This document shows, one piece after another, positions 18,099 through 24,961 of a stretch of DNA of 64,000 nt. Source of the stretch: Candidatus Moraniibacteriota bacterium (GTDB lineage Bacteria; Patescibacteriota; Minisyncoccia; Moranbacterales; UBA2206); assembly GCA_013334765.1 (NCBI GenBank), contig JAAXWW010000002.1, positions 21,453-85,452 on the forward strand. Reading direction: 5' to 3'. The position numbers and the translations under genes are program-made. A model generated the notes under the pieces. The model ran no database searches. It had not been told where the DNA came from and was given only the letters and a program-made list of their open reading frames with translations. Numbering within the stretch: position 1 is the first letter of the stretch; each line of letters begins with the position of its first letter.

Positions 18099-19829
18099 TT
18101 ACACAGAAATCTGCTGCAGCTCGCTCAGTTTCTGATAGACTCCGCCTTTTTCGAGAAGCTCCTTGTGGTCTCCTGATTCGACGATGCGTCCGTTTTCAAT
18201 GACCAGGATCAGATCAGCCTTCCTGATGGTGCTCAAACGATGGGCGATGACGAAAGTCGTCCTGTTCTTCATCACTTCCTGGAGCGCCTCTTGAACATAT
18301 TTCTCCGATTCGCTATCAAGCGCGCTGGTCGCTTCGTCAAGGATGAGGATCTTCGGATCGCGAAGGATCGCCCGAGCTATCGCCACTCGCTGCTTCTGCC
18401 CGGTCGAAAGCTTCACGCCTTTGTCTCCGACCACTTGGGAATATTTCTTTGGAAAAGACATAATAAAATCATGGCAATTGGCTGACTTGGCAGCCGCGAT
18501 AATCTCTTCTTCTGTCGCATTCATCTTGGAATATGAGATATTGTTCCTGATAGTGTCATTGAAAAGAGCAATCTCTTGCGGCACGATCGCGATCTGCCTT
18601 CGAAGATCTCCAAGCCTTATTTTCCTCGTATCGATCCCATCAAGCATCACTTTCCCCTTGCTAGGGACGTTATAGAGAGAAATCAGGTCCACCAACGTGC
18701 TTTTCCCCTCTCCGCTCTTGCCGACAATCGCTATCATCTGTCCAGGTTCAGCTTTAAATGAGATGTTTTCCAGAACAGTTTCTTTGTCATATGAAAAGCT
18801 GACGTTTTTGAACTCAATCTCGCCTTTGCAGCTTTCGAGAGCTATGGCATTCGGATTATCATAATCCTCCGTCGCTTCGGAAAAAATCCTGTCAGCCCGC
18901 TCAATAGTCACCAAGCTTTCTTGGAACTGCTTATACCGGCTGCCAAGGCCGGAAATAGCGGTGGTAGCATAGCCGACATATCCCAGTAGCATGATGAATT
19001 GCCCAATAGTTATTCTTCCGATACTGACAAGATACATCCCGGCAGAAAACAATGATAGGAAACTTATAGCATAGATGAAATCCTGCCAAGAAGAAACCTC
19101 AGACCATAATCCCAGTTGTTTTATATGGGATCGCCTTCCTTTTTTGAAATTGCGGATATTGTTGCTACATTCGAAATCTTCCGCCACATTCGATTTGATA
19201 CTGATGATGTTCTGCGTCCGATCGAAAATATCGCCATATGCTTTCTCATGGATCTTGTTCATTTCCGTCTGGCATTCAATGACCGGCTTGGTCTTTTTCA
19301 CGGTAGCCCAGAAATATGTCAGGGTAAAAACGACGTATATCGCTGCCAATATCCAATCGATCCAAGCGATCACGGCAAAAGCCAGGAATGAAGTCAGCAA
19401 GTTAGGCAATATTTCGAAAATCCCTTCGGAAGACAAATCAGCTATTCGCATGTCGGCCCGAGTAAATCGTTCCAATAACTCGCCGATTTTCTGTGATTTA
19501 TGAAAGGCCAGTGGTAAGCGAGACAAGCGATCGACTGATTTAACAGTCAGGTCAGTTGCCACTTGGTATCCGATGTCCCAAGAACGTCTTTCCCGAATTC
19601 GTCCAAACCAACTGCCCATGAGGCTACCGGCTGTCCAGACTGCCAGAAGAACAAGCACTGATCGCTCAAAGAAAATTCCCTTCGTCACGATATCCACCAC
19701 GCGGCCATAAACTACTGGCAAAACCAATTGGATCGCATTCTCCAACACGACAAAAACAGCCGTCGCATATATGGCTTTCTTATACGGCTTCAGGTATTTT
19801 ATGATCGGTTTGAGTTTTCCGGTTTTCAT
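18099..19829 (-). CDS. ABC transporter, fused permease/ATP-binding (MsbA-like exporter)
   Basis: Six-TM N-terminal domain. Walker A GKSGEGKST, signature LSTGQKQRVAIARA, Walker B ILILDEATSALD. Confidence 0.85.
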   Translation of the reverse strand: MKTGKLKPIIKYLKPYKKAIYATAVFVVLENAIQLVLPVVYGRVVDIVTKGIFFERSVLVLLAVWTAGSLMGSWFGRIRERRSWDIGYQVATDLTVKSVDRLSRLPLAFHKSQKIGELLERFTRADMRIADLSSEGIFEILPNLLTSFLAFAVIAWIDWILAAIYVVFTLTYFWATVKKTKPVIECQTEMNKIHEKAYGDIFDRTQNIISIKSNVAEDFECSNNIRNFKKGRRSHIKQLGLWSEVSSWQDFIYAISFLSLFSAGMYLVSIGRITIGQFIMLLGYVGYATTAISGLGSRYKQFQESLVTIERADRIFSEATEDYDNPNAIALESCKGEIEFKNVSFSYDKETVLENISFKAEPGQMIAIVGKSGEGKSTLVDLISLYNVPSKGKVMLDGIDTRKIRLGDLRRQIAIVPQEIALFNDTIRNNISYSKMNATEEEIIAAAKSANCHDFIMSFPKKYSQVVGDKGVKLSTGQKQRVAIARAILRDPKILILDEATSALDSESEKYVQEALQEVMKNRTTFVIAHRLSTIRKADLILVIENGRIVESGDHKELLEKGGVYQKLSELQQISV

Positions 19830-19919
19830 AATAATAAGCCCATTTTATCACCTTTTTGGCTTATAGTAAAGGAAATCTACCTCGAAATCTATCTATTTTT
19901 GATGCCTGCCATGTCGCCA

Positions 19920-19948
19920 TTGACATAATATGTTTTTTCTGCTATCAT
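19920..19948 (+). promoter_or_regulatory. promoter for small gene at 20002
   Basis: TTGACA-17 nt-TATCAT. Confidence 0.4.
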
Positions 19949-20001
19949 AACGCGATGCCTGATTTCAGCATCAAAAAAACATCAAGAAAAGGAGCTCCCA
20001 G

Positions 20002-20226
20002 ATGAGCCAAAAAGGGCGTCTCAACCGTGAAGTAACAACCCACGAATGCAACTGGCTCAAGGAAGACCTTCCTAAAGGTCTGAAAGTTCACAAGTTCAAT
20101 GGGTACACCTATGGGTGCATCGAATCCGGAGTGGCCGTCACCATAAAACCCTGGTGGCACTGGATTCTTTTTTGGCGTAAACCTCCTTTCTTCGAGGTTC
20201 CGTCCGACGCCGTGGGTTGGAAATAG
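20002..20226 (+). CDS. hypothetical small protein (74 aa, His/Cys/Trp-rich)
   Basis: AAGGAG RBS 7 nt upstream. Own promoter and terminator. Confidence 0.45.
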   Translation: MSQKGRLNREVTTHECNWLKEDLPKGLKVHKFNGYTYGCIESGVAVTIKPWWHWILFWRKPPFFEVPSDAVGWK

Positions 20227-20248
20227 CCTCCCGCACAGCCATCCGCAA

Positions 20249-20290
20249 GCCGCTACCTACGAATCAACGATTCGCAAGGGGCGGCTTTTT
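20249..20290 (+). terminator. bidirectional terminator
   Basis: gccgc...cgaatc/gattcg...gcggc nested hairpin plus TTTTT. Confidence 0.5.
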
Positions 20291-20298
20291 AATATAGT

Positions 20299-20916
20299 TT
20301 ACAAAGACAGTTTTTCAGATAAGAAATTCTCTACTCGTCTGTATATTTTTTCATGTCCTTTGGCATTCGGATGCAATCCATCTGACAAATCTTCCTTTGT
20401 CAAAACATCCCACAAAGGAATAAAATCCAAATCGTATTTTTTGCAAATATTTTCAATCTCATCATTATACCTTTTCATATCCTCATTTTCCCAATACTCG
20501 TTTTCTGACCATGGCTTGGTTTTTTCTTCGTCAACAATCATGAGTCCGGTGAAAACAATATCGTTTGAATATTTCTTGGATATTTCGACAATCTTTTCCA
20601 GATTACTCCGATATGAATCGAATGGAACTCCGACATTATCCTTAGTGTCTACATAGACAGGATCGTTCGATCCGATTGAAAATATGAGGGTATACTCTTC
20701 GGGTTCGATTTTGTTGAATTTTTCAATATCGCTCTCAATCGTTTCTAATACTCCCGCGGTATTGTTAGACGAGACTGACAAATTGTAAACGCCAATCCTC
20801 TTCCCTTCGCTGAAAGTGTCCAGATATCTCGTCTTCAATCTCTCAACCCATCCGCCCTTTTCATCATCGAACGCGCCCCAAGATATGCTGTCACCGAATA
20901 TTAGAATCTTTTTCAT
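20299..20916 (-). CDS. SGNH/GDSL-family hydrolase (lipase/esterase)
   Basis: Block I IFGDSIS, block III GSND, block V DGLHPN. Confidence 0.8.
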   Translation of the reverse strand: MKKILIFGDSISWGAFDDEKGGWVERLKTRYLDTFSEGKRIGVYNLSVSSNNTAGVLETIESDIEKFNKIEPEEYTLIFSIGSNDPVYVDTKDNVGVPFDSYRSNLEKIVEISKKYSNDIVFTGLMIVDEEKTKPWSENEYWENEDMKRYNDEIENICKKYDLDFIPLWDVLTKEDLSDGLHPNAKGHEKIYRRVENFLSEKLSL

Positions 20917-20925
20917 AATGTTATT

Positions 20926-20953
20926 GGATGTAAAATCGAATTATCCTTTCACT
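20926..20953 (-). repeat. conserved 3-prime-end element, copy 1 (NUDIX gene)
   Basis: Plus-strand reading ttggatgtaaaat...ttcact. The TGA stop lies inside ttcact. Confidence 0.4.
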
Positions 20954-21389
20954 GCCTCAATCTTTCCCCATACTCGCCAATCGATTCCCTGACCGCAGGT
21001 GACAGGTTATCCTTACTCAATGCTTCTTCTATCGTGAAATATTCCAGCTTCTGACCTTCGTTCAATTTCAATCCTTCAAGCGATTGATCGGTCTTCGCAA
21101 GGAAAACGAAAAGTCTGATCGTTTCGGTTTTCTTGTCGCCATCACTCCTGGTTGCATATGTGACCATCCTGCTTCCCATCTCCTCAATATCATAAACGCA
21201 AATATTCGATTCTTCTTGAAGCTCGCGTTTCAAAGCTTCGATCGACTGCTCGCCTTCTTCGATGCCGCCACCCAGAAGACCATACATACCCGGGTTCGGA
21301 ATGGTAGGCTTATTATCCCTTAGAACGAACAGGTATTCGCCGAGATTCTCGTTTCTTATGAAGACCTTGGCACCGTTTTTGATTGCCAT
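20949..21389 (-). CDS. NUDIX hydrolase
   Basis: Nudix box GGGIEEGEQSIEALKRELQEESNI. Confidence 0.75.
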   Translation of the reverse strand: MAIKNGAKVFIRNENLGEYLFVLRDNKPTIPNPGMYGLLGGGIEEGEQSIEALKRELQEESNICVYDIEEMGSRMVTYATRSDGDKKTETIRLFVFLAKTDQSLEGLKLNEGQKLEYFTIEEALSKDNLSPAVRESIGEYGERLRQ

Positions 21390-21477
21390 ATGGAAAAATA
21401 AGTCTTATTTATGACAGCATTTATGTGATTTGAGTGAAAGAAAAGATTCAACCTTTAAAAATCTATCTGCACGCTTT

Positions 21478-22044
21478 TTATTGAACTTCATACATGCTGT
21501 TGTCGGCAAATCTTTCCTGCCAGCTTCTCAGCTCATCGAATATTCTATCGTCAAAATCATCCGGTTTGAATTTTAAGATGGCGTTGGCGTTCTTTACGCA
21601 GTGGTTTTTCAATTCATTCTCGTTGTTTTGGCTGGAATACCATTTGAAGCTGTCAATAATATCAGCCGTTTTGACAATGAGAGCGTCTTGCCCGTTTTGC
21701 ACGCATCTTTGAATCAGTTCATTCGTCTTTTCCATCTTGTCCGCAATCGTATCATCCTTAGTACTCGCAAAAACCAAGCGGACAACATTGTCACCGAATT
21801 CATCCCTTAATGATTGTTCCTCAACATCAGACCACTCGATTGCGTCGTGCAGAACGCCAGCCAAAACAATATCTTCCGAATAACCGTTTTCATACAAATA
21901 CACGCCGACGCGTATATCGTGGAACATCACAGGCTTTCTGCTGTTTTCATCCGACGGCGGCATATGTTCCGACAGAATCCGCACGGCTTTTTCAAATTTT
22001 ATGCTAAGTGATTTTGACATGAAGCATTCAATAGACTTTACCAC
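21478..22044 (-). CDS. HD-domain phosphohydrolase
   Basis: H...HD metal-binding motif (FHDIRVG...VLHDAIE). Confidence 0.6.
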   Translation of the reverse strand: MVKSIECFMSKSLSIKFEKAVRILSEHMPPSDENSRKPVMFHDIRVGVYLYENGYSEDIVLAGVLHDAIEWSDVEEQSLRDEFGDNVVRLVFASTKDDTIADKMEKTNELIQRCVQNGQDALIVKTADIIDSFKWYSSQNNENELKNHCVKNANAILKFKPDDFDDRIFDELRSWQERFADNSMYEVQ

Positions 22045-22357
22045 CCAATGGTATTTCTTTGTCAGGACTCAGTAATACGCATTCGTTTTCAGCATCGGGA
22101 ACACCCAGTGTAAGCACTTCAGAGATATTTTTGCCGATTTGCTTGGGTGGAAAATTGAGTATCCCAATGATGTTTTTGCCAATCAGCTCTTCGGTGGAAT
22201 AGTTTATCAACCTGGCGCATGATTGCTTTTGACCGATTTTTTCACCGAAATCTATAATGATTCTGTGTGTCGTATATTTGGCATTTTCGATCCGTTCCGC
22301 TTTAACTATCTTGCCTATTCTGACATCGATTTTACTAAACTCTTCGTATTGAATCAT
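22028..22357 (-). CDS. csaA: tRNA-binding protein (CsaA/Trbp111-like OB-fold)
   Basis: KIDVRIGKIVKAERI and LGVPDAENECVLLSPD are typical of the MetRS C-terminal-like tRNA-binding domain. Overlaps the HD gene by 17 nt. Confidence 0.7.
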   Translation of the reverse strand: MIQYEEFSKIDVRIGKIVKAERIENAKYTTHRIIIDFGEKIGQKQSCARLINYSTEELIGKNIIGILNFPPKQIGKNISEVLTLGVPDAENECVLLSPDKEIPLGGKVY

Positions 22358-22413
22358 ATGTTTTATGATGAAAAATTTGGTCGATAAAATTTTACTTTCC
22401 TTTTGAGCCGCAT

Positions 22414-22443
22414 ACTCAGTGTTGTCGGATGTAAAAATTCACT
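22414..22443 (-). repeat. conserved 3-prime-end element, copy 2 (cupin gene)
   Basis: tcagtgttgtcggatgtaaaaattcact. Confidence 0.4.
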
Positions 22444-22801
22444 TCTCATTCTTGTCTATCTTGTTGTTCGGTATGCTAGGAGTCCTTACGGAAACAGTAA
22501 TGGTTGGCTCATATACTTCGAGGATAGCTTCGGTTACATTGTTTCTCAGAAAAATAAAATCGCCATCGCTCAGTACGGAATCTTCACCATCCAACTGCCA
22601 CTTCAATTTTCCCTTGATGACAATGCAGACTTCCGTGCCATGCGGATGATAATGCGGCGGATAAGCATCACCGGGTTTCAGCGTGTCATACTTCACTTCC
22701 AGCTCAGAATTTTTTTGAATGGAATCATCAGGAAAAAACTGCCCGCAAAGCCAGCCTTTCGTTTCTGTATAATTTCTAACGTTATCAACCTTATATCTCA
22801 T
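22439..22801 (-). CDS. cupin-domain protein
   Basis: PPHYHPHGTEVCIVIKGK: cupin motif 1 with His ligands. Confidence 0.6.
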   Translation of the reverse strand: MRYKVDNVRNYTETKGWLCGQFFPDDSIQKNSELEVKYDTLKPGDAYPPHYHPHGTEVCIVIKGKLKWQLDGEDSVLSDGDFIFLRNNVTEAILEVYEPTITVSVRTPSIPNNKIDKNEK

Positions 22802-23049
22802 AGAAATGTGATAAATTACAGAACCGGATGTTTTATGTTAGGCGATGTAGCAAAAAATTTTATTCAACATAATTATAAAAAGCAAATTTAAAAAAGAAAA
22901 AGAATTTTATTTCACATAACGTATCCAAATATGAGAAGTTTTTGTCCGCTTCCTTATTATATATCAATAGAAGAAAAGGGCGAAAATTTGGGTTGAGAAA
23001 AATTTGCTTTCCTTGTTAATATAATTGTGCAAATTTTTTGAACCTCATA

Positions 23050-23092
23050 TTCGGTGTTGGACGATGTGAATAATATTTTTTAATTTTTCACT
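23050..23092 (-). repeat. conserved 3-prime-end element, copy 3 (P-loop kinase gene, more divergent)
   Basis: tcggtgttggacgatgtgaataat...ttcact. Confidence 0.35.
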
Positions 23093-23622
23093 TCATTATA
23101 AAATGCTATTTCTTTTTTCATTTGCTCGGCTATAATTTCAGGCTTAGCATGGGAAAATATTTTGATATCACCAAGCTCTTTATAAATCGGAAAGCGTTGA
23201 ATAAATTTTGTTTTTTCTCTGTCTTCCTTCAAGCCAAAGCCCCTTGAAAGTTGTCTTTTAACGACGATTTCCGCACTCTCATCTAAAGACTTTGATGGCA
23301 AAAGTAAAACGGAAATTCCTTGGTCTTTCAAAGTTTGTTTATGTTTCAAAGTTAGTTCATCCATATTCTCATGAATCAAAAATCCAGAGGACAGAGAAAA
23401 AACAAAATTTTCTAAATGTTGGCCCAAAATCTCATAGAATAACTTGGAGTTCTCGAGGCAATATTTTTCATAACCTAAGTTGTTGATATAAGTACCAACA
23501 TTTTCAACGCGTTTGCAAAATTCCAAATCTAAATCGATGAAATTATAGCCGAGCAAATTCGCTAAAATTTCTCCGCACGTTGACTTACCCACGCCACCTG
23601 GACCAATTATAAATATTTTCAT
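23080..23622 (-). CDS. P-loop NTPase, shikimate-kinase-like small kinase
   Basis: IIGPGGVGKST Walker A followed by DLD. AroK/gluconokinase-like size of 180 aa. Confidence 0.5.
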   Translation of the reverse strand: MKIFIIGPGGVGKSTCGEILANLLGYNFIDLDLEFCKRVENVGTYINNLGYEKYCLENSKLFYEILGQHLENFVFSLSSGFLIHENMDELTLKHKQTLKDQGISVLLLPSKSLDESAEIVVKRQLSRGFGLKEDREKTKFIQRFPIYKELGDIKIFSHAKPEIIAEQMKKEIAFYNEVKN

Positions 23623-23818
23623 AGCGGGAAAAAAGAAATAGCAATCATTAGAAGAAAAATTTAAAAATATTATTTATTTCGCCCAACTCTTTCATACGCG
23701 AAGTGTTTTCGCATATCATGCCCGACACCTCGCTAGTTCCAAAAATAACAGCTTAAATATAGCATAAAACAGACATAATAACCAACTTCGGCGGCTGAGC
23801 CTGGAAGCAAGGCTCCAA

Positions 23819-24961
23819 ATGCGATATACTGGGAATATGCGCATATCATATTCGTCATTCGAGACATATAACAACTGCCCCCTGAAATACAAGTTCCAGG
23901 AGATCGACAAGATCAGGACTCCAAAATCCAAGGAGGCCGTTTTCGGTTCCGTCATCCATGGAACCATGAAATTCATCCACACGCCCGGCATCCTCTCCCC
24001 CACCATGGAGCAGACCATGGAGCATTTCTCCAATTCATGGAACCCGGCCGTTTTCGATTCGGAACAGGAAGAACGTTCCGCCTTCGCGCAAGGCGTCAGG
24101 ATCATTCAGGACTACTATAAACGCAACCGGCCCGAAGATTTCAATATCGTCAATCTCGAGTCCCGCTTCGCCATCGAGATCGGAGAAGAGGGCGGAAAGC
24201 ATATCGTTTCCGGGATCATCGACCGCATCGACCGCACGGATGATGGCTTTGAGATCATCGACTACAAGACCGGCAAGAAGATGCCGACCCAGAAGGATAT
24301 CGACGAGAACGTCCAGCTGACCGTCTATTTGCAAGCCTTCCTTTCGCAATATCCCGAAGAAGCCAAAAACCTCAGCAAGCTCAAAGTCAGCCTATATTTC
24401 CTGAAGCACGGCGTGAAACTGAGCGCATTCCGAACCGAAGAGCAATTGAAAGCCAACGAGAAGATGTTCCTCGAGACCATAAAACTCATCGAGGAAGGCA
24501 AGTTCGAACCGAACATCTCGCCGCTTTGCGACTGGTGCGGCTATCAGAAGAACTGTCCGATGTGGAAACACAAATTCAAAGAAGAAAGGAAAATCGACAC
24601 CGAAGAAATCAACTCTTCCATCCAGGAATATATCGACTTGAAATCCGCCATGACCATCACCAAGGAAAGGCTCGGCAAGCTTCAGGAAGATATCATGCAG
24701 TATATGGAGCAGGAGGAAGTGGAAAGGGTCTTCAGCGAGAACGGCATCGTCTCGAAGACGCTCCGGAAGACATATAAATATGACGACGCCAAGATAAAGG
24801 AACTGCTTGAGCCGATCGGGAAATGGAAGGATGTCCTCAAACTCGATCCGACAGCCCTCAAGAATATCTTTCCCGTGCTTCCCGGCGCCGTCCAGCGGGA
24901 AATCGAAAAAGCCAAAGTCATCGACAAGGAAAGCGCCAGCTTGAATGTGAGGAAGAAATAG
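23819..24961 (+). CDS. Cas4-like / RecB-family PD-(D/E)XK nuclease with Fe-S cysteines and a roughly 130-aa C-terminal extension
   Basis: N-terminal Cys (YNNCPLKY). Catalytic core IIDRIDR...EIIDYKTGK...QLTVY. C-terminal CDWCGYQKNC three-Cys cluster. Confidence 0.6.
   Translation: MRYTGNMRISYSSFETYNNCPLKYKFQEIDKIRTPKSKEAVFGSVIHGTMKFIHTPGILSPTMEQTMEHFSNSWNPAVFDSEQEERSAFAQGVRIIQDYYKRNRPEDFNIVNLESRFAIEIGEEGGKHIVSGIIDRIDRTDDGFEIIDYKTGKKMPTQKDIDENVQLTVYLQAFLSQYPEEAKNLSKLKVSLYFLKHGVKLSAFRTEEQLKANEKMFLETIKLIEEGKFEPNISPLCDWCGYQKNCPMWKHKFKEERKIDTEEINSSIQEYIDLKSAMTITKERLGKLQEDIMQYMEQEEVERVFSENGIVSKTLRKTYKYDDAKIKELLEPIGKWKDVLKLDPTALKNIFPVLPGAVQREIEKAKVIDKESASLNVRKK

What the first reader, a model, noticed from the sequence alone, without database searches (positions are those of the whole stretch)
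20926..23092. Conserved approximately 25-nt element at the 3-prime ends of three neighbouring, separately transcribed genes
The NUDIX (20949), cupin (22439) and P-loop kinase (23080) genes each end inside a shared sequence. On the plus strand it reads (t)gttg-N2-3-ggatgt(a/g)aa(a/t)aat...ttcact. On the mRNA it reads TGA-A-(A/T)TTTTACATCC-N-(A/C)AACAC, with the TGA stop codon embedded in the TTCACT part. Other minus-strand genes in the same island (SGNH, HD) lack it. Such a 3-prime UTR box could be a binding site for an RNA-binding protein or sRNA, a processing or stability determinant, or the footprint of a small dispersed repeat.
Basis: seen in the sequence. Interest (0 to 1): 0.5.

Follow-up and report, generated by a model that had tools for sequence, protein, structure and literature searches.

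The report
Decayed integron-like gene cassette array
The short box seen after three genes is the tip of a folded recombination site that separates mobile gene cassettes in an integron-like system of ultra-small (CPR/Patescibacteria) bacteria and their phages; I found no published description of this system, and this genome carries a decayed copy of it without its recombinase gene.

Summary
The motif is real but was misdescribed. The core, ACATC-NNNN-AAC on the gene strand, occurs four times in 64 kb. All four copies lie in 2.2 kb on one strand (0.04 expected for the stricter form). Two weaker copies also exist.

The box is the 5' end of a structured element of about 110-170 nt. The window has one intact copy after the kinase (110.9 bits) and two decayed copies, after the cupin and after the HD gene.

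A covariance model found 209 copies in 100 metagenome contigs, always co-oriented within a contig, with strong compensatory base-pair changes. Co-oriented genes lie between copies. The two ends of each cassette are long inverted repeats (19/21; 28/33 around the window's kinase). Identical elements carry different downstream DNA starting at a GTT box.

In 16 contigs a divergent tyrosine recombinase sits upstream of the array next to a conserved attI-like site. The window has that site (23676-23717) but no recombinase. The recombinase resembles integron integrases most but lacks their signature insertion.

Verdict: an integrase-less remnant of an integron-like platform, which I did not find described in the searchable literature. 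The mechanism is inferred from sequence, not shown.

The parts
23676..23717 (-). attI-like site heading the array. Gene sense: GATATGCGAAAACACTTCGCGTATGAAAGA|GTTGGGCGAAAT.
   Evidence: It aligns with the conserved site next to the recombinase gene in 14 other loci, for example L188 ATATACGAAAACACTTCGTATAATAACCA|GTTAGTTGCAAT. It is one of only 3 GTTNNNNGAAAT hits in the window.
23655..23687 (-). 5' inverted repeat of the kinase cassette (GTTGGGCGAAATAAATAATATTTTTAAATTTTT).
   Evidence: It matches the reverse complement of the kinase 3' flank at 28 of 33 positions. No other 33-mer in the window reaches 22 of 33.
23080..23622 (-). Cassette gene: shikimate-kinase-like P-loop kinase, stop codon TAA.
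   Evidence: Pfam SKI, E 4.5e-15; stop codon checked.
23054..23088 (-). 3' inverted repeat of the kinase cassette, including first-reader copy 3 (ACATCGTCCAACAC; R''-type box GTCCAAC).
22908..23068 (-). Intact structured attC-like element: R'' box, L'' stem, hairpin 1, ACCCAAATTT, hairpin 2, AAACTTC, L' stem, R' box GTTATGT, GAAAT.
   Evidence: Covariance model R1: 110.9 bits, E 7.6e-25, full length. Nested inverted repeats I4 and I25. Single-strand DNA fold z = -2.6. Nearly identical to L206:1517-1678.
22909..22920 (-). R'-type box plus flank (GTTATGTGAAAT). This is the inferred crossover point and the start of the next cassette.
   Evidence: The same leader, GTTATGTGAAATAAAATTCTTT..., starts the first cassette at the attI-like site of L148 and follows elements in L166 and L198.
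22835..22848 (-). Fourth exact core copy (ACATCGCCTAACAT; R'' box GCCTAAC). It ends a roughly 85-nt ORF-less segment and is followed 12 nt later by GTTCTGT. I read it as a collapsed element.
   Evidence: weak model hit 22708-22849, 19.6 bits.
22439..22801 (-). Cassette gene: cupin.
   Evidence: Pfam Cupin_2. Homologues at 81% identity in L081 and L082 carry the same 3' box. In L082 the gene has complementary ends and a full element downstream.
22372..22436 (-). First-reader copy 2 (TTTTACATCCGACAACAC) plus the 5' half of a truncated attC-like element.
   Evidence: Local alignment with the kinase-side element scores 37 against a shuffle mean of 18.4. nhmmer E 2e-20. Model hit 22328-22433, 24.8 bits, E 1.3e-3.
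22360..22374 (-). Degenerate core copy (TTTTCATCATAAAAC), followed by AT and then the ATG of the tRNA-binding-domain gene.
   Evidence: One-mismatch hit; sequence shown.
22028..22357 (-). Cassette-region gene: tRNA-binding domain protein.
   Evidence: Pfam tRNA_bind.
21478..22044 (-). Cassette-region gene: HD-domain protein.
   Evidence: Pfam HD_4. A 68%-identical homologue sits in the array of L136.
21375..21511 (-). Degenerate attC-like element spanning the HD stop codon and the HD-NUDIX spacer (ATTTGCCGACAACAGCATGTATGAAGTTCAATAA...CTTTCACTCAAAT).
   Evidence: Model R1: 23.2 bits, E 3.2e-3.
20949..21389 (-). Cassette gene: NUDIX hydrolase.
   Evidence: Pfam NUDIX.
20918..20935 (-). First-reader copy 1 (TTTTACATCCAATAACAT). 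Only the R''-type box survives, one base before the SGNH ATG.
   Evidence: model hit of 11.2 bits only.
20299..20916 (-). Last gene of the island: SGNH/GDSL hydrolase, followed by a GC-rich hairpin at 20247-20287.
   Evidence: Pfam Lipase_GDSL_2; inverted repeat I5.

Best explanation
The boxes are the upstream ends (inverse-core R'' box RYYYAAC plus an ACATC flank) of attC-like recombination sites. These sites separate gene cassettes in an integron-like platform that is common in CPR/Patescibacteria bacteria and also occurs in phage-like contigs.

In complete versions a 270-290 aa tyrosine recombinase gene is transcribed away from a conserved attI-like site. After that site comes a one-directional array of cassettes. 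Each cassette starts with TT-NNNN-GAAAT, carries a gene or nothing, and ends with ACATC-NNNN-AAC followed by a structured element of about 90-150 nt that ends in G of the GTT box.

Inferred mechanism. The recombinase cuts at the GTT box. Recombination between two successive boxes excises a cassette as a circle. In that circle the two cassette ends pair and extend the element's outer stem into a long hairpin. Circles re-insert at the attI-like site or at another element. Covariation indicates that the folded single strand is the functional form, but this has not been shown.

The window holds a horizontally acquired, low-GC island (about 20299-23717) that is such an array without a recombinase gene in these 64 kb. 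It has an attI-like site, a kinase cassette with an intact element, and then progressively decayed junctions after the cupin, HD and NUDIX genes. It is probably no longer mobile on its own.
For: In the window. Core copies cluster on one strand. There is one full and two partial model hits, all on the gene strand and all at gene boundaries. A 28/33 inverted repeat brackets the kinase gene. An attI-like site lies at 23676-23717. The island has 0.37-0.42 GC against about 0.47 around it, and it is absent from about 25 relatives, where the Rrf2 and PD-(D/E)XK nuclease genes are direct neighbours.

The element family. Model R1 finds 209 copies in 100 loci. Among the 150 best matches, 38 loci hold 2-5 copies and none mixes orientations. 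Base pairing: 95.2% of cells paired against 67.9% in shuffles; 880 double-sided changes against 241; slid controls 38-57%.

Cassette logic. Flanking ORFs are co-oriented with the element, 71:8 upstream and 56:18 downstream. The flanks of one element are not complementary (7.19 against 7.06 for random pairs). The two ends of one cassette are complementary: 19/21 in five arrays, always with the same GAAAT-versus-GATGT mismatch. Near-identical elements are followed by unrelated DNA starting right after GTT (L082 versus L092). The cupin cassette recurs elsewhere with its box.

Recombinase. It is the most recurrent neighbouring protein (16 of 117 loci), and in all 16 it lies upstream of the array and is divergently transcribed. 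Each has an attI-like site with TTCGTATA, 7-8 nt, then GTT, mirroring the L'-R' end of the element. Its best family and structure matches are integron integrases: TIGR02249 at 184-228 bits and VchIntIA (PDB 2a3v) at E 2e-45.

Folding. Joining the kinase cassette's own ends across its element gives -31.5 kcal/mol, against -22.9 for the junction as it stands in the array.
Against: - No recombinase gene is present in the window (tblastn E > 0.6; 30 ORFs scanned by Pfam). Activity here could only come in trans from elsewhere in the genome, which I could not examine.
- Only one of the window's elements is intact.
- Nothing is experimental. Excision, circles and the use of single-stranded DNA are inferred.
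- The recombinase scores below the integron-integrase cut-off (265 bits) and lacks the IntI-specific insertion thought necessary for folded-attC recombination. The chemistry may differ.
- The L'-spacer-R' segment also looks like an ordinary double-stranded core site with two inverted arms (my reading). Conventional duplex recombination is therefore possible.
- Family members were collected with a sequence pattern, and alignment A4 was fitted to the model. Both inflate apparent conservation and pairing.
- Only 16 of 117 loci show the recombinase; many of the contigs are only 1-5 kb long.
- The GTTNNNNGAAAT pattern by itself is not enriched in the window (3 hits, 4.8 expected).
Confidence: 0.78

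Rival explanations
1. An RNA-level element: a 3' UTR or intercistronic structure acting as a terminator, an RNase processing site or a stability element. Complementary mRNA ends would give protected transcripts.
For: The elements are co-oriented with genes and start 4-30 nt after stop codons in many loci. The stems covary, and a G.U-compatible wobble is kept in 148 of 150 sequences. Hairpins followed by T-rich runs could terminate transcription.
Against: It does not explain identical elements joined to different DNA at GTT, the recombinase plus attI-like site heading arrays in 16 of 16 cases, or the presence of cassettes in unrelated genomic contexts. There is no Rfam match. In the window two copies sit directly before a start codon with the rest of the element missing. 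It could still be a secondary role.
Confidence: 0.1
2. Xer/dif-type modules, like the pdif modules of Acinetobacter plasmids. A housekeeping Xer-like recombinase would act on ordinary double-stranded 11-6/8-11 core sites (the L' arm, a spacer and the R' arm). The long hairpin architecture would be incidental.
For: The recombinase passes the XerA-type model NF040815 in 4 of the 6 proteins tested (cut-off 220 bits; scores 209-231) and lacks the integron-specific insertion. Published work groups the recombinases of candidate phyla as Xer-related (PMC8138268). ACTTCGTATAA and TTATCGGAAAT are imperfect inverted arms around a 7-9 bp spacer (my reading).
Against: Covariation between L'' and L', between R'' and the start of the cassette, and within two internal hairpins is not needed for a duplex site and implies selection on intrastrand folding. 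Arrays are unidirectional, with an attI-like site and a divergent recombinase, unlike the alternating pdif sites (from my own knowledge of that literature).
Confidence: 0.1
3. A miniature transposable element (a MITE or REP-like repeat) that inserted repeatedly behind genes, or mobile insertion cassettes bounded by transposon-type terminal inverted repeats.
For: It is a dispersed, structured repeat of 100-170 nt with inverted GTT...AAC ends. Genes are bracketed by inverted repeats.
Against: The flanks of an element are neither target-site duplications nor complementary. No transposase recurs among neighbouring proteins. Orientation within arrays and relative to genes is strict. The recurrent partner is a tyrosine recombinase with its own matching site.
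Confidence: 0.02

Closest known systems
Integrons (IntI, attI and attC cassette arrays), especially sedentary chromosomal integrons with homogeneous attC sites such as the Vibrio cholerae repeats
   Same: - A divergent tyrosine recombinase sits next to an attI-like site.
- The array is unidirectional, made of mostly single-gene, co-oriented cassettes.
- Each cassette ends in an imperfect-palindrome site with RYYYAAC ... GTTRRRY boxes, inner L-type stems, an unpaired spacer and a variable terminal region.
- Junctions fall at the GTT box.
- The start of a cassette is complementary to its own inverse core.
- Typical cassette cargo is present (Fic/DOC, methyltransferases, NUDIX, cupin).
   Different: - The recombinase is 270-290 aa and lacks the IntI-specific insertion (about 43 residues missing relative to VchIntIA 184-244). 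It scores under the TIGR02249 cut-off.
- The site carries two conserved internal hairpins and conserved unpaired motifs (CACCCAAATTT, AAACTTC).
- Complementarity between cassette ends runs 20-33 nt or more beyond the 7-bp box, with a fixed two-base mismatch.
- The hosts are CPR bacteria and phage-like contigs.
CALIN (cluster of attC sites lacking an integron integrase; the IntegronFinder category)
   Same: The window itself is an array of attC-like sites with no recombinase gene nearby.
   Different: The sites are not shown to match the canonical attC model. All but one are decayed. An attI-like site is still present.
Xer/dif recombination and Xer-dependent modules (pdif modules, IMEX elements)
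   Same: A Xer-like recombinase without the integron insertion, and a possible 11-spacer-11 core site with inverted arms.
   Different: One dedicated recombinase gene is linked to the array. The sites are directional and structured, with covarying stems, rather than 28-bp duplex sites in alternating orientation.
Mobile insertion cassettes and MITEs
   Same: Passenger genes are bracketed by inverted repeats, and no mobility gene lies inside the unit.
   Different: There is no transposase partner and no target duplications. The repeats are cassette-specific apart from a short conserved core.

Membership tests
Integron | An IntI integrase: a tyrosine recombinase carrying the IntI-specific additional domain around patch III (PMC9668308, citing Messier & Roy 2001) | tested here: not met
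   The window has no recombinase. In related arrays the recombinase matches TIGR02249 in two pieces (model positions 2-178 and 239-313) at 184-228 bits, below the 265-bit cut-off. Against VchIntIA (PDB 2a3v), query residues 180-197 stand in for IntI4 residues 184-244.
Integron | attC sites with an RYYYAAC (R'') box upstream and a GTTRRRY (R') box downstream, as imperfect inverted repeats | tested here: met
   AACA and CGTT are invariant or nearly invariant in 48 aligned elements, for example GCCTAAC ... GTTAGGC in L106. The window's intact copy has GTCCAAC ... GTTATGT.
Integron | An inner L''/L' stem, an unpaired central spacer and a variable terminal structure, with structure conserved more than sequence | tested here: met
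   The L stem has 11 pairs, 7 of them with double-sided changes, and 96.3% of cells are paired. The spacing between the L and R boxes is 2-3 nt longer on the 3' side. The terminal region is variable in length. Unlike classical attC sites, parts of the terminal region are conserved in sequence.
Integron | Extrahelical bases in the L box that set strand choice | tested here: inconclusive
   Fixed irregularities exist: a G.T wobble at the inner end of the L stem (148/150), an A.C mismatch in hairpin 2, and a CA/AA mismatch in the ACATC/GAAAT extension. No bulged bases equivalent to those of classical attC sites were identified.
Integron | attC length of about 57-141 bp | tested here: inconclusive
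   The distance from the AAC of R'' to the GTT of R' is 86-143 nt, so 94-151 nt with the full boxes. This overlaps the upper range. (The 57-141 bp range is from my own knowledge of the integron literature.)
Integron | An attI site next to the divergent integrase gene, where the first cassette is joined at GTT | tested here: met
   A conserved ...TTCG(T/C)ATA-7/8 nt-GTTRnnnGAAAT lies 46-123 nt from the recombinase start in 14 loci. The first cassette of L146 is cognate with it. The window has the site but not the gene.
Integron | Cassettes that are co-oriented, mostly single-gene, and individually mobile | tested here: met
   ORF orientation is 71:8 and 56:18. Element spacing in arrays is 406-3232 nt. 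The same element occurs with different downstream cassettes, and the cupin and HD cassettes occur in different arrays. Mobility is inferred from comparisons, not observed.
Integron | A match to the curated attC covariance model of IntegronFinder | not testable with these tools
   That model is not available here. Rfam has no matching family.
CALIN | At least two attC sites with no integrase nearby | tested here: inconclusive
   The window has one strong and two weak hits to my own model, with no recombinase in 64 kb. Whether the canonical attC model would call these sites is untested.
Xer/dif site | A 28-30 bp duplex site: two 11-bp inverted arms around a 6-8 bp centre, used by the chromosomal Xer recombinase | tested here: inconclusive
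   The arms ACTTCGTATAA and TTATCGGAAAT match in 8 of 11 positions when inverted (my reading). Recombinase scores on NF040815 straddle the cut-off. The covarying long-range stems are not a dif feature.

The most novel reading that the evidence does not exclude
CPR/Patescibacteria and their phages carry a distinct class of integron. A Xer-like recombinase without the I2/IntI-specific domain would recombine large, sequence-conserved, folded attC-like sites whose stems extend 20-30 bp into each cassette. This could be either a relative of the pre-I2 ancestor of integrons or an independent invention of the same logic. It would also mean that many recombinases now annotated as 'XerD' in candidate phyla are cassette integrases.
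Probability: 0.5. Interest if true: 0.88.

Novelty: new variant of a known kind. Interest (0 to 1): 0.8.

Why it matters
Integrons are the textbook system for capturing and shuffling genes. Their defining innovation is held to be the extra helix (I2) that lets the integrase recombine folded single-stranded attC sites (PMC4792948 and PMC7790495, abstracts seen).

A platform with the full integron layout but without that helix bears directly on how integrons arose. It can be tested with existing recombination assays.

It would also give CPR bacteria a dedicated route for gene exchange. These organisms have tiny genomes and few recognised mobile elements, and the element also occurs in phage-like contigs. 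Thousands of proteins now labelled 'XerD-like' would need re-annotation.

Standard integron detection keys on the IntI-specific domain (PMC9668308) and so would not call these recombinases integron integrases. My literature searches found no description of integrons in these phyla.

For this particular window the consequence is modest: the six-gene island is explained as a decayed cassette array.

Tried and rejected
- Chance: rejected.
- A general Moranbacteria motif or a conserved regulatory site at this locus: rejected. It is absent from 80 related loci, and the island itself is absent there.
- A sigma-70 promoter (TTTACA as the -35 box) or a leaderless-mRNA promoter in front of the SGNH and tRNA-binding genes: the spacings are inconsistent between copies (by eye).
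- A DnaA box (TGTGAATAA in copy 3 only) or a full dif site: there is no dyad symmetry in the 25-nt box itself.
- tRNA genes or known RNA families in or near the island: none.
- The + strand ORF 23819-24961 as an integrase: it is a PD-(D/E)XK nuclease, conserved next to Rrf2 in relatives.
- Small ORFs starting 5 nt after copies 2 and 3 (MRFKK..., MRLKR...): this similarity is explained by homology of the element, not by coding.
- Exact look-ups of the window's cupin and kinase proteins found nothing on record.
- Cupin homologues at 70-79% identity (L083-L089) show ordinary genomic contexts, and those checked (L083-L086) lack the box. Only the closest (L081, L082) were informative.
- Three of the five viral-contig pattern hits were chance matches.
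Full report
**1. The observation**

The region was read directly. On the gene (minus) strand the three copies are:
- NUDIX: TGA-N13-TTTTACATCCAATAACAT
- cupin: TGA-A-TTTTTACATCCGACAACAC
- kinase: TAA-N12-TTCACATCGTCCAACAC

The common core is ACATC-NNNN-AAC, which on the + strand reads GTT-NNNN-GATGT.

- GTTNNNNGATGT has four hits in the whole window, all on the + strand between 20920 and 23067.
- ACATCNNNYAACAY has four hits against 0.04 expected.
- The probability of such clustering is about 2e-5.
- The 10-mer TTTTACATCC alone is not significant.

The fourth exact copy (22835-48) lies upstream of the cupin gene. A one-mismatch copy (22360-74) abuts the ATG of the next gene. The kinase stop is TAA at 23080-82, not the TGA in TTCACT.

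**2. Context**

The window comes from a Candidatus Moranbacteria-type CPR genome. Its PD-(D/E)XK nuclease (23819-24961) is 65-77% identical to those of Moranbacteria assemblies.

In about 25 relatives the Rrf2 regulator and this nuclease are direct neighbours. In the window they are separated by an ABC transporter plus six small minus-strand genes: SGNH, NUDIX, HD, tRNA-binding, cupin and SKI-like kinase. That stretch has 0.37-0.42 GC against about 0.47 elsewhere. The genes therefore form an acquired island.

The window has no tRNA gene and no Rfam family. It has no integrase.

**3. The box is the tip of a larger element**

The kinase-cupin and cupin-tRNA-binding spacers share homology well beyond the box (score 37 against a shuffle mean of 18.4). 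The kinase-side copy contains nested inverted repeats (I4 and I25).

The closest cupin homologue (81% identity, contig L082) is followed by the same box and a full-length relative of the element, with compensatory changes in both stems. It is preceded by another copy.

A pattern taken from the element's 3' half found two genuine copies in phage-like IMG/VR contigs. One is behind a DNA methylase. The other ends 13 nt before a terminase gene.

**4. Anatomy of the element**

This is taken from the alignment of 48 copies. In order, 5' to 3':
- (T)ACATC
- R'' box (RYYYAAC), then A
- L'' stem (about 10 nt, with an invariant TAT)
- GGTTC
- hairpin 1
- TTCACCCAAATTT
- hairpin 2
- AAACTTC
- L' stem (invariant ATA)
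- 3-5 unpaired nt
- (A)C, then the R' box (GTTRnnn)
- GAAAT

The distance from AAC to GTT is 86-143 nt.

A covariance model, R1, finds 209 copies in 100 loci. On the 150 best, 95.2% of cells are paired against 67.9% in shuffles. There are 880 double-sided changes against 241, and slid controls give 38-57%.

Two caveats apply. The seeds were chosen with a pattern that fixes ACCCAAATTT, AAACTTC and ATA, and alignment A4 was fitted to the model. Even so, the 60 hits that lack the exact pattern keep CaCCCAaATT, AACtTC, AACA, TAT, GG.T and cGTT.

**5. In the window**

Model R1 gives:
- one full copy after the kinase (22908-23068, 110.9 bits)
- a 5' half after the cupin (24.8 bits)
- a degenerate copy across the HD stop codon and the HD-NUDIX spacer (21375-21511, 23.2 bits)
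- weak hits at the two bare boxes (22708-22849 and 20909-20932)

All are on the gene strand.

**6. Cassette logic**

- ORFs next to elements are co-oriented with them, 71:8 upstream and 56:18 downstream.
- Among the 150 best matches, 38 loci hold 2-5 copies and none mixes orientations. Several loci hold more in the full 209-hit table.
- The two flanks of one element are no more complementary than random pairs (7.19 against 7.06 of 21 positions).
- The right flank of one element and the left flank of the next, which are the two ends of a cassette, match at 19/21 in L082, L095, L149, L152 and L198. The same two-base difference is always present: GAAAT at the cassette start and GATGT (ACATC) at its end.
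- In the window the kinase gene is bracketed in the same way, 28/33. No other 33-mer in the window reaches 22 matches.
- Near-identical elements (L082, L092, L107, L121, L133, L134, L165, L189 and others) are followed by unrelated sequence beginning right after GTT.
- Homologues of the window's cupin and HD genes are cassettes in other arrays.
- Joining the kinase cassette's own ends across its element gives a long hairpin at -31.5 kcal/mol, against -22.9 for the junction as it stands in the array.

**7. Recombinase and attI-like site**

Clustering all ORFs near elements shows that the most recurrent protein is a 270-290 aa tyrosine recombinase, in 16 of 117 loci. Next come Fic/DOC proteins (9 loci) and a methyltransferase (6 loci).

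In all 16 loci the recombinase lies upstream of the array on the opposite strand. At 46-123 nt from its start codon, 14 loci show a conserved site...AAC(A/T)CTTCG(T/C)ATA(T/A)(A/T)AAC(G/C)A|GTTRnnnGAAAT. It is often preceded by an inverted TATACGAA and a second TTCGTATAA. This mirrors the L'-spacer-R' end of the element.

The window has a good copy of this site at 23676-23717, immediately upstream of the kinase cassette. About 130 nt further on it has the conserved nuclease gene instead of a recombinase.

**8. What the recombinase is**

- Its best NCBIfam hits are 'integron integrase' TIGR02249 (184-228 bits, cut-off 265, matched as model 2-178 plus 239-313) and the XerA-type model NF040815 (209-231 bits, cut-off 220).
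- Its best solved structure is VchIntIA (PDB 2a3v), E 1.8e-45, again in two pieces that skip IntI4 residues 184-244.
- It therefore lacks the IntI-specific domain that defines integron integrases (PMC9668308).
- The family is large: more than 6600 proteins at E < 1e-30. Sources name them only 'tyrosine-type recombinase' or 'XerD', in Moranbacteria, Portnoybacteria, Gracilibacteria and similar groups.
- A published classification groups candidate-phyla recombinases as Xer-related (PMC8138268).

**9. Interpretation**

Shown by sequence comparison:
- a structured, covarying element family
- unidirectional arrays with co-oriented genes
- cassette-specific complementary ends
- junctions at GTT
- a linked divergent recombinase with a matching site

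Inferred:
- excision and insertion at G|TT
- circular intermediates
- use of a folded single strand

The last point rests on covariation that a duplex site would not need. It is weakened by the missing IntI domain and by the dif-like look of the L'-R' segment. The window's island is best read as an integrase-less, partly collapsed array. It runs: attI-like site, kinase cassette with an intact element, an ORF-less leader and a collapsed site, the cupin, a half element, the tRNA-binding and HD genes, a degenerate element, NUDIX, a bare box, and SGNH.

**10. Rivals**

- An RNA role may coexist but does not explain the DNA junction patterns.
- A MITE is contradicted by the flank test and by the lack of a transposase.
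- A Xer-type duplex mechanism remains a real alternative for the chemistry.

**11. Novelty**

Searches of the paper library for integrons or attC together with Patescibacteria, CPR or Parcubacteria returned only resistome surveys. The IntegronFinder 2.0 and archaeal-integron papers do not mention these phyla. The library is incomplete, so prior description cannot be excluded. I file it as a new variant of a known kind, not as a member of the integron family, because a defining feature (the IntI domain) was tested and not met.

Noticed in passing
L106, L139 and L148: first 150-250 nt after the attI-like site (sequences): The first cassette in three arrays carries a shared motif, GGGG(T/A)AATAAGGTGTTTT-[hairpin]-AAAACGA(T/A)TTTAT. 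It could be a leader, a promoter or another structured element.
   Followed up: no
Right flanks of elements in L207, L211, L175, L201 and L190: 'Empty cassettes' of about 35-45 nt consist only of the complementary cassette ends around a loop (T)CCGCT(T/A)CGCTCC. The same loop motif occurs in hairpin 2 of the element.
   Followed up: no
window 22875-22920 (minus strand): The leader GTTATGTGAAATAAAATTCTTTTTCTTTTTTAAATTTGCTTTTT that follows the intact element also starts the first cassette at the attI-like site of L148 and follows elements in L166 and L198. It seems to be a mobile ORF-less segment.
   Followed up: partly
window 19830-20298: A GC-rich non-coding stretch between the ABC transporter and SGNH genes, with a 19-nt hairpin at 20247-20287 and a 71-aa ORF (19945-20160, minus strand) that has no Pfam hit. 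Possibly a terminator or a small RNA.
   Followed up: no
L090:5210-6943 (minus strand): A phage terminase large subunit interrupted by an intein (HINT / intein-splicing domains). An attC-like element ends 13 nt before its start codon.
   Followed up: partly
window 18099-19829: The ABC transporter between the Rrf2 and nuclease genes is present in only one of about 25 syntenic relatives (L022). The Rrf2-nuclease gap therefore appears to be a recurrent insertion spot; several relatives have 1-3 kb of other DNA there.
   Followed up: partly
window 22356-22414 (+ strand): A sub-threshold Rfam hit to the eukaryotic snoRNA family Z13/snr52 (24.9 bits, gathering score 47, E 0.18). I judge it a chance match.
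   Followed up: yes
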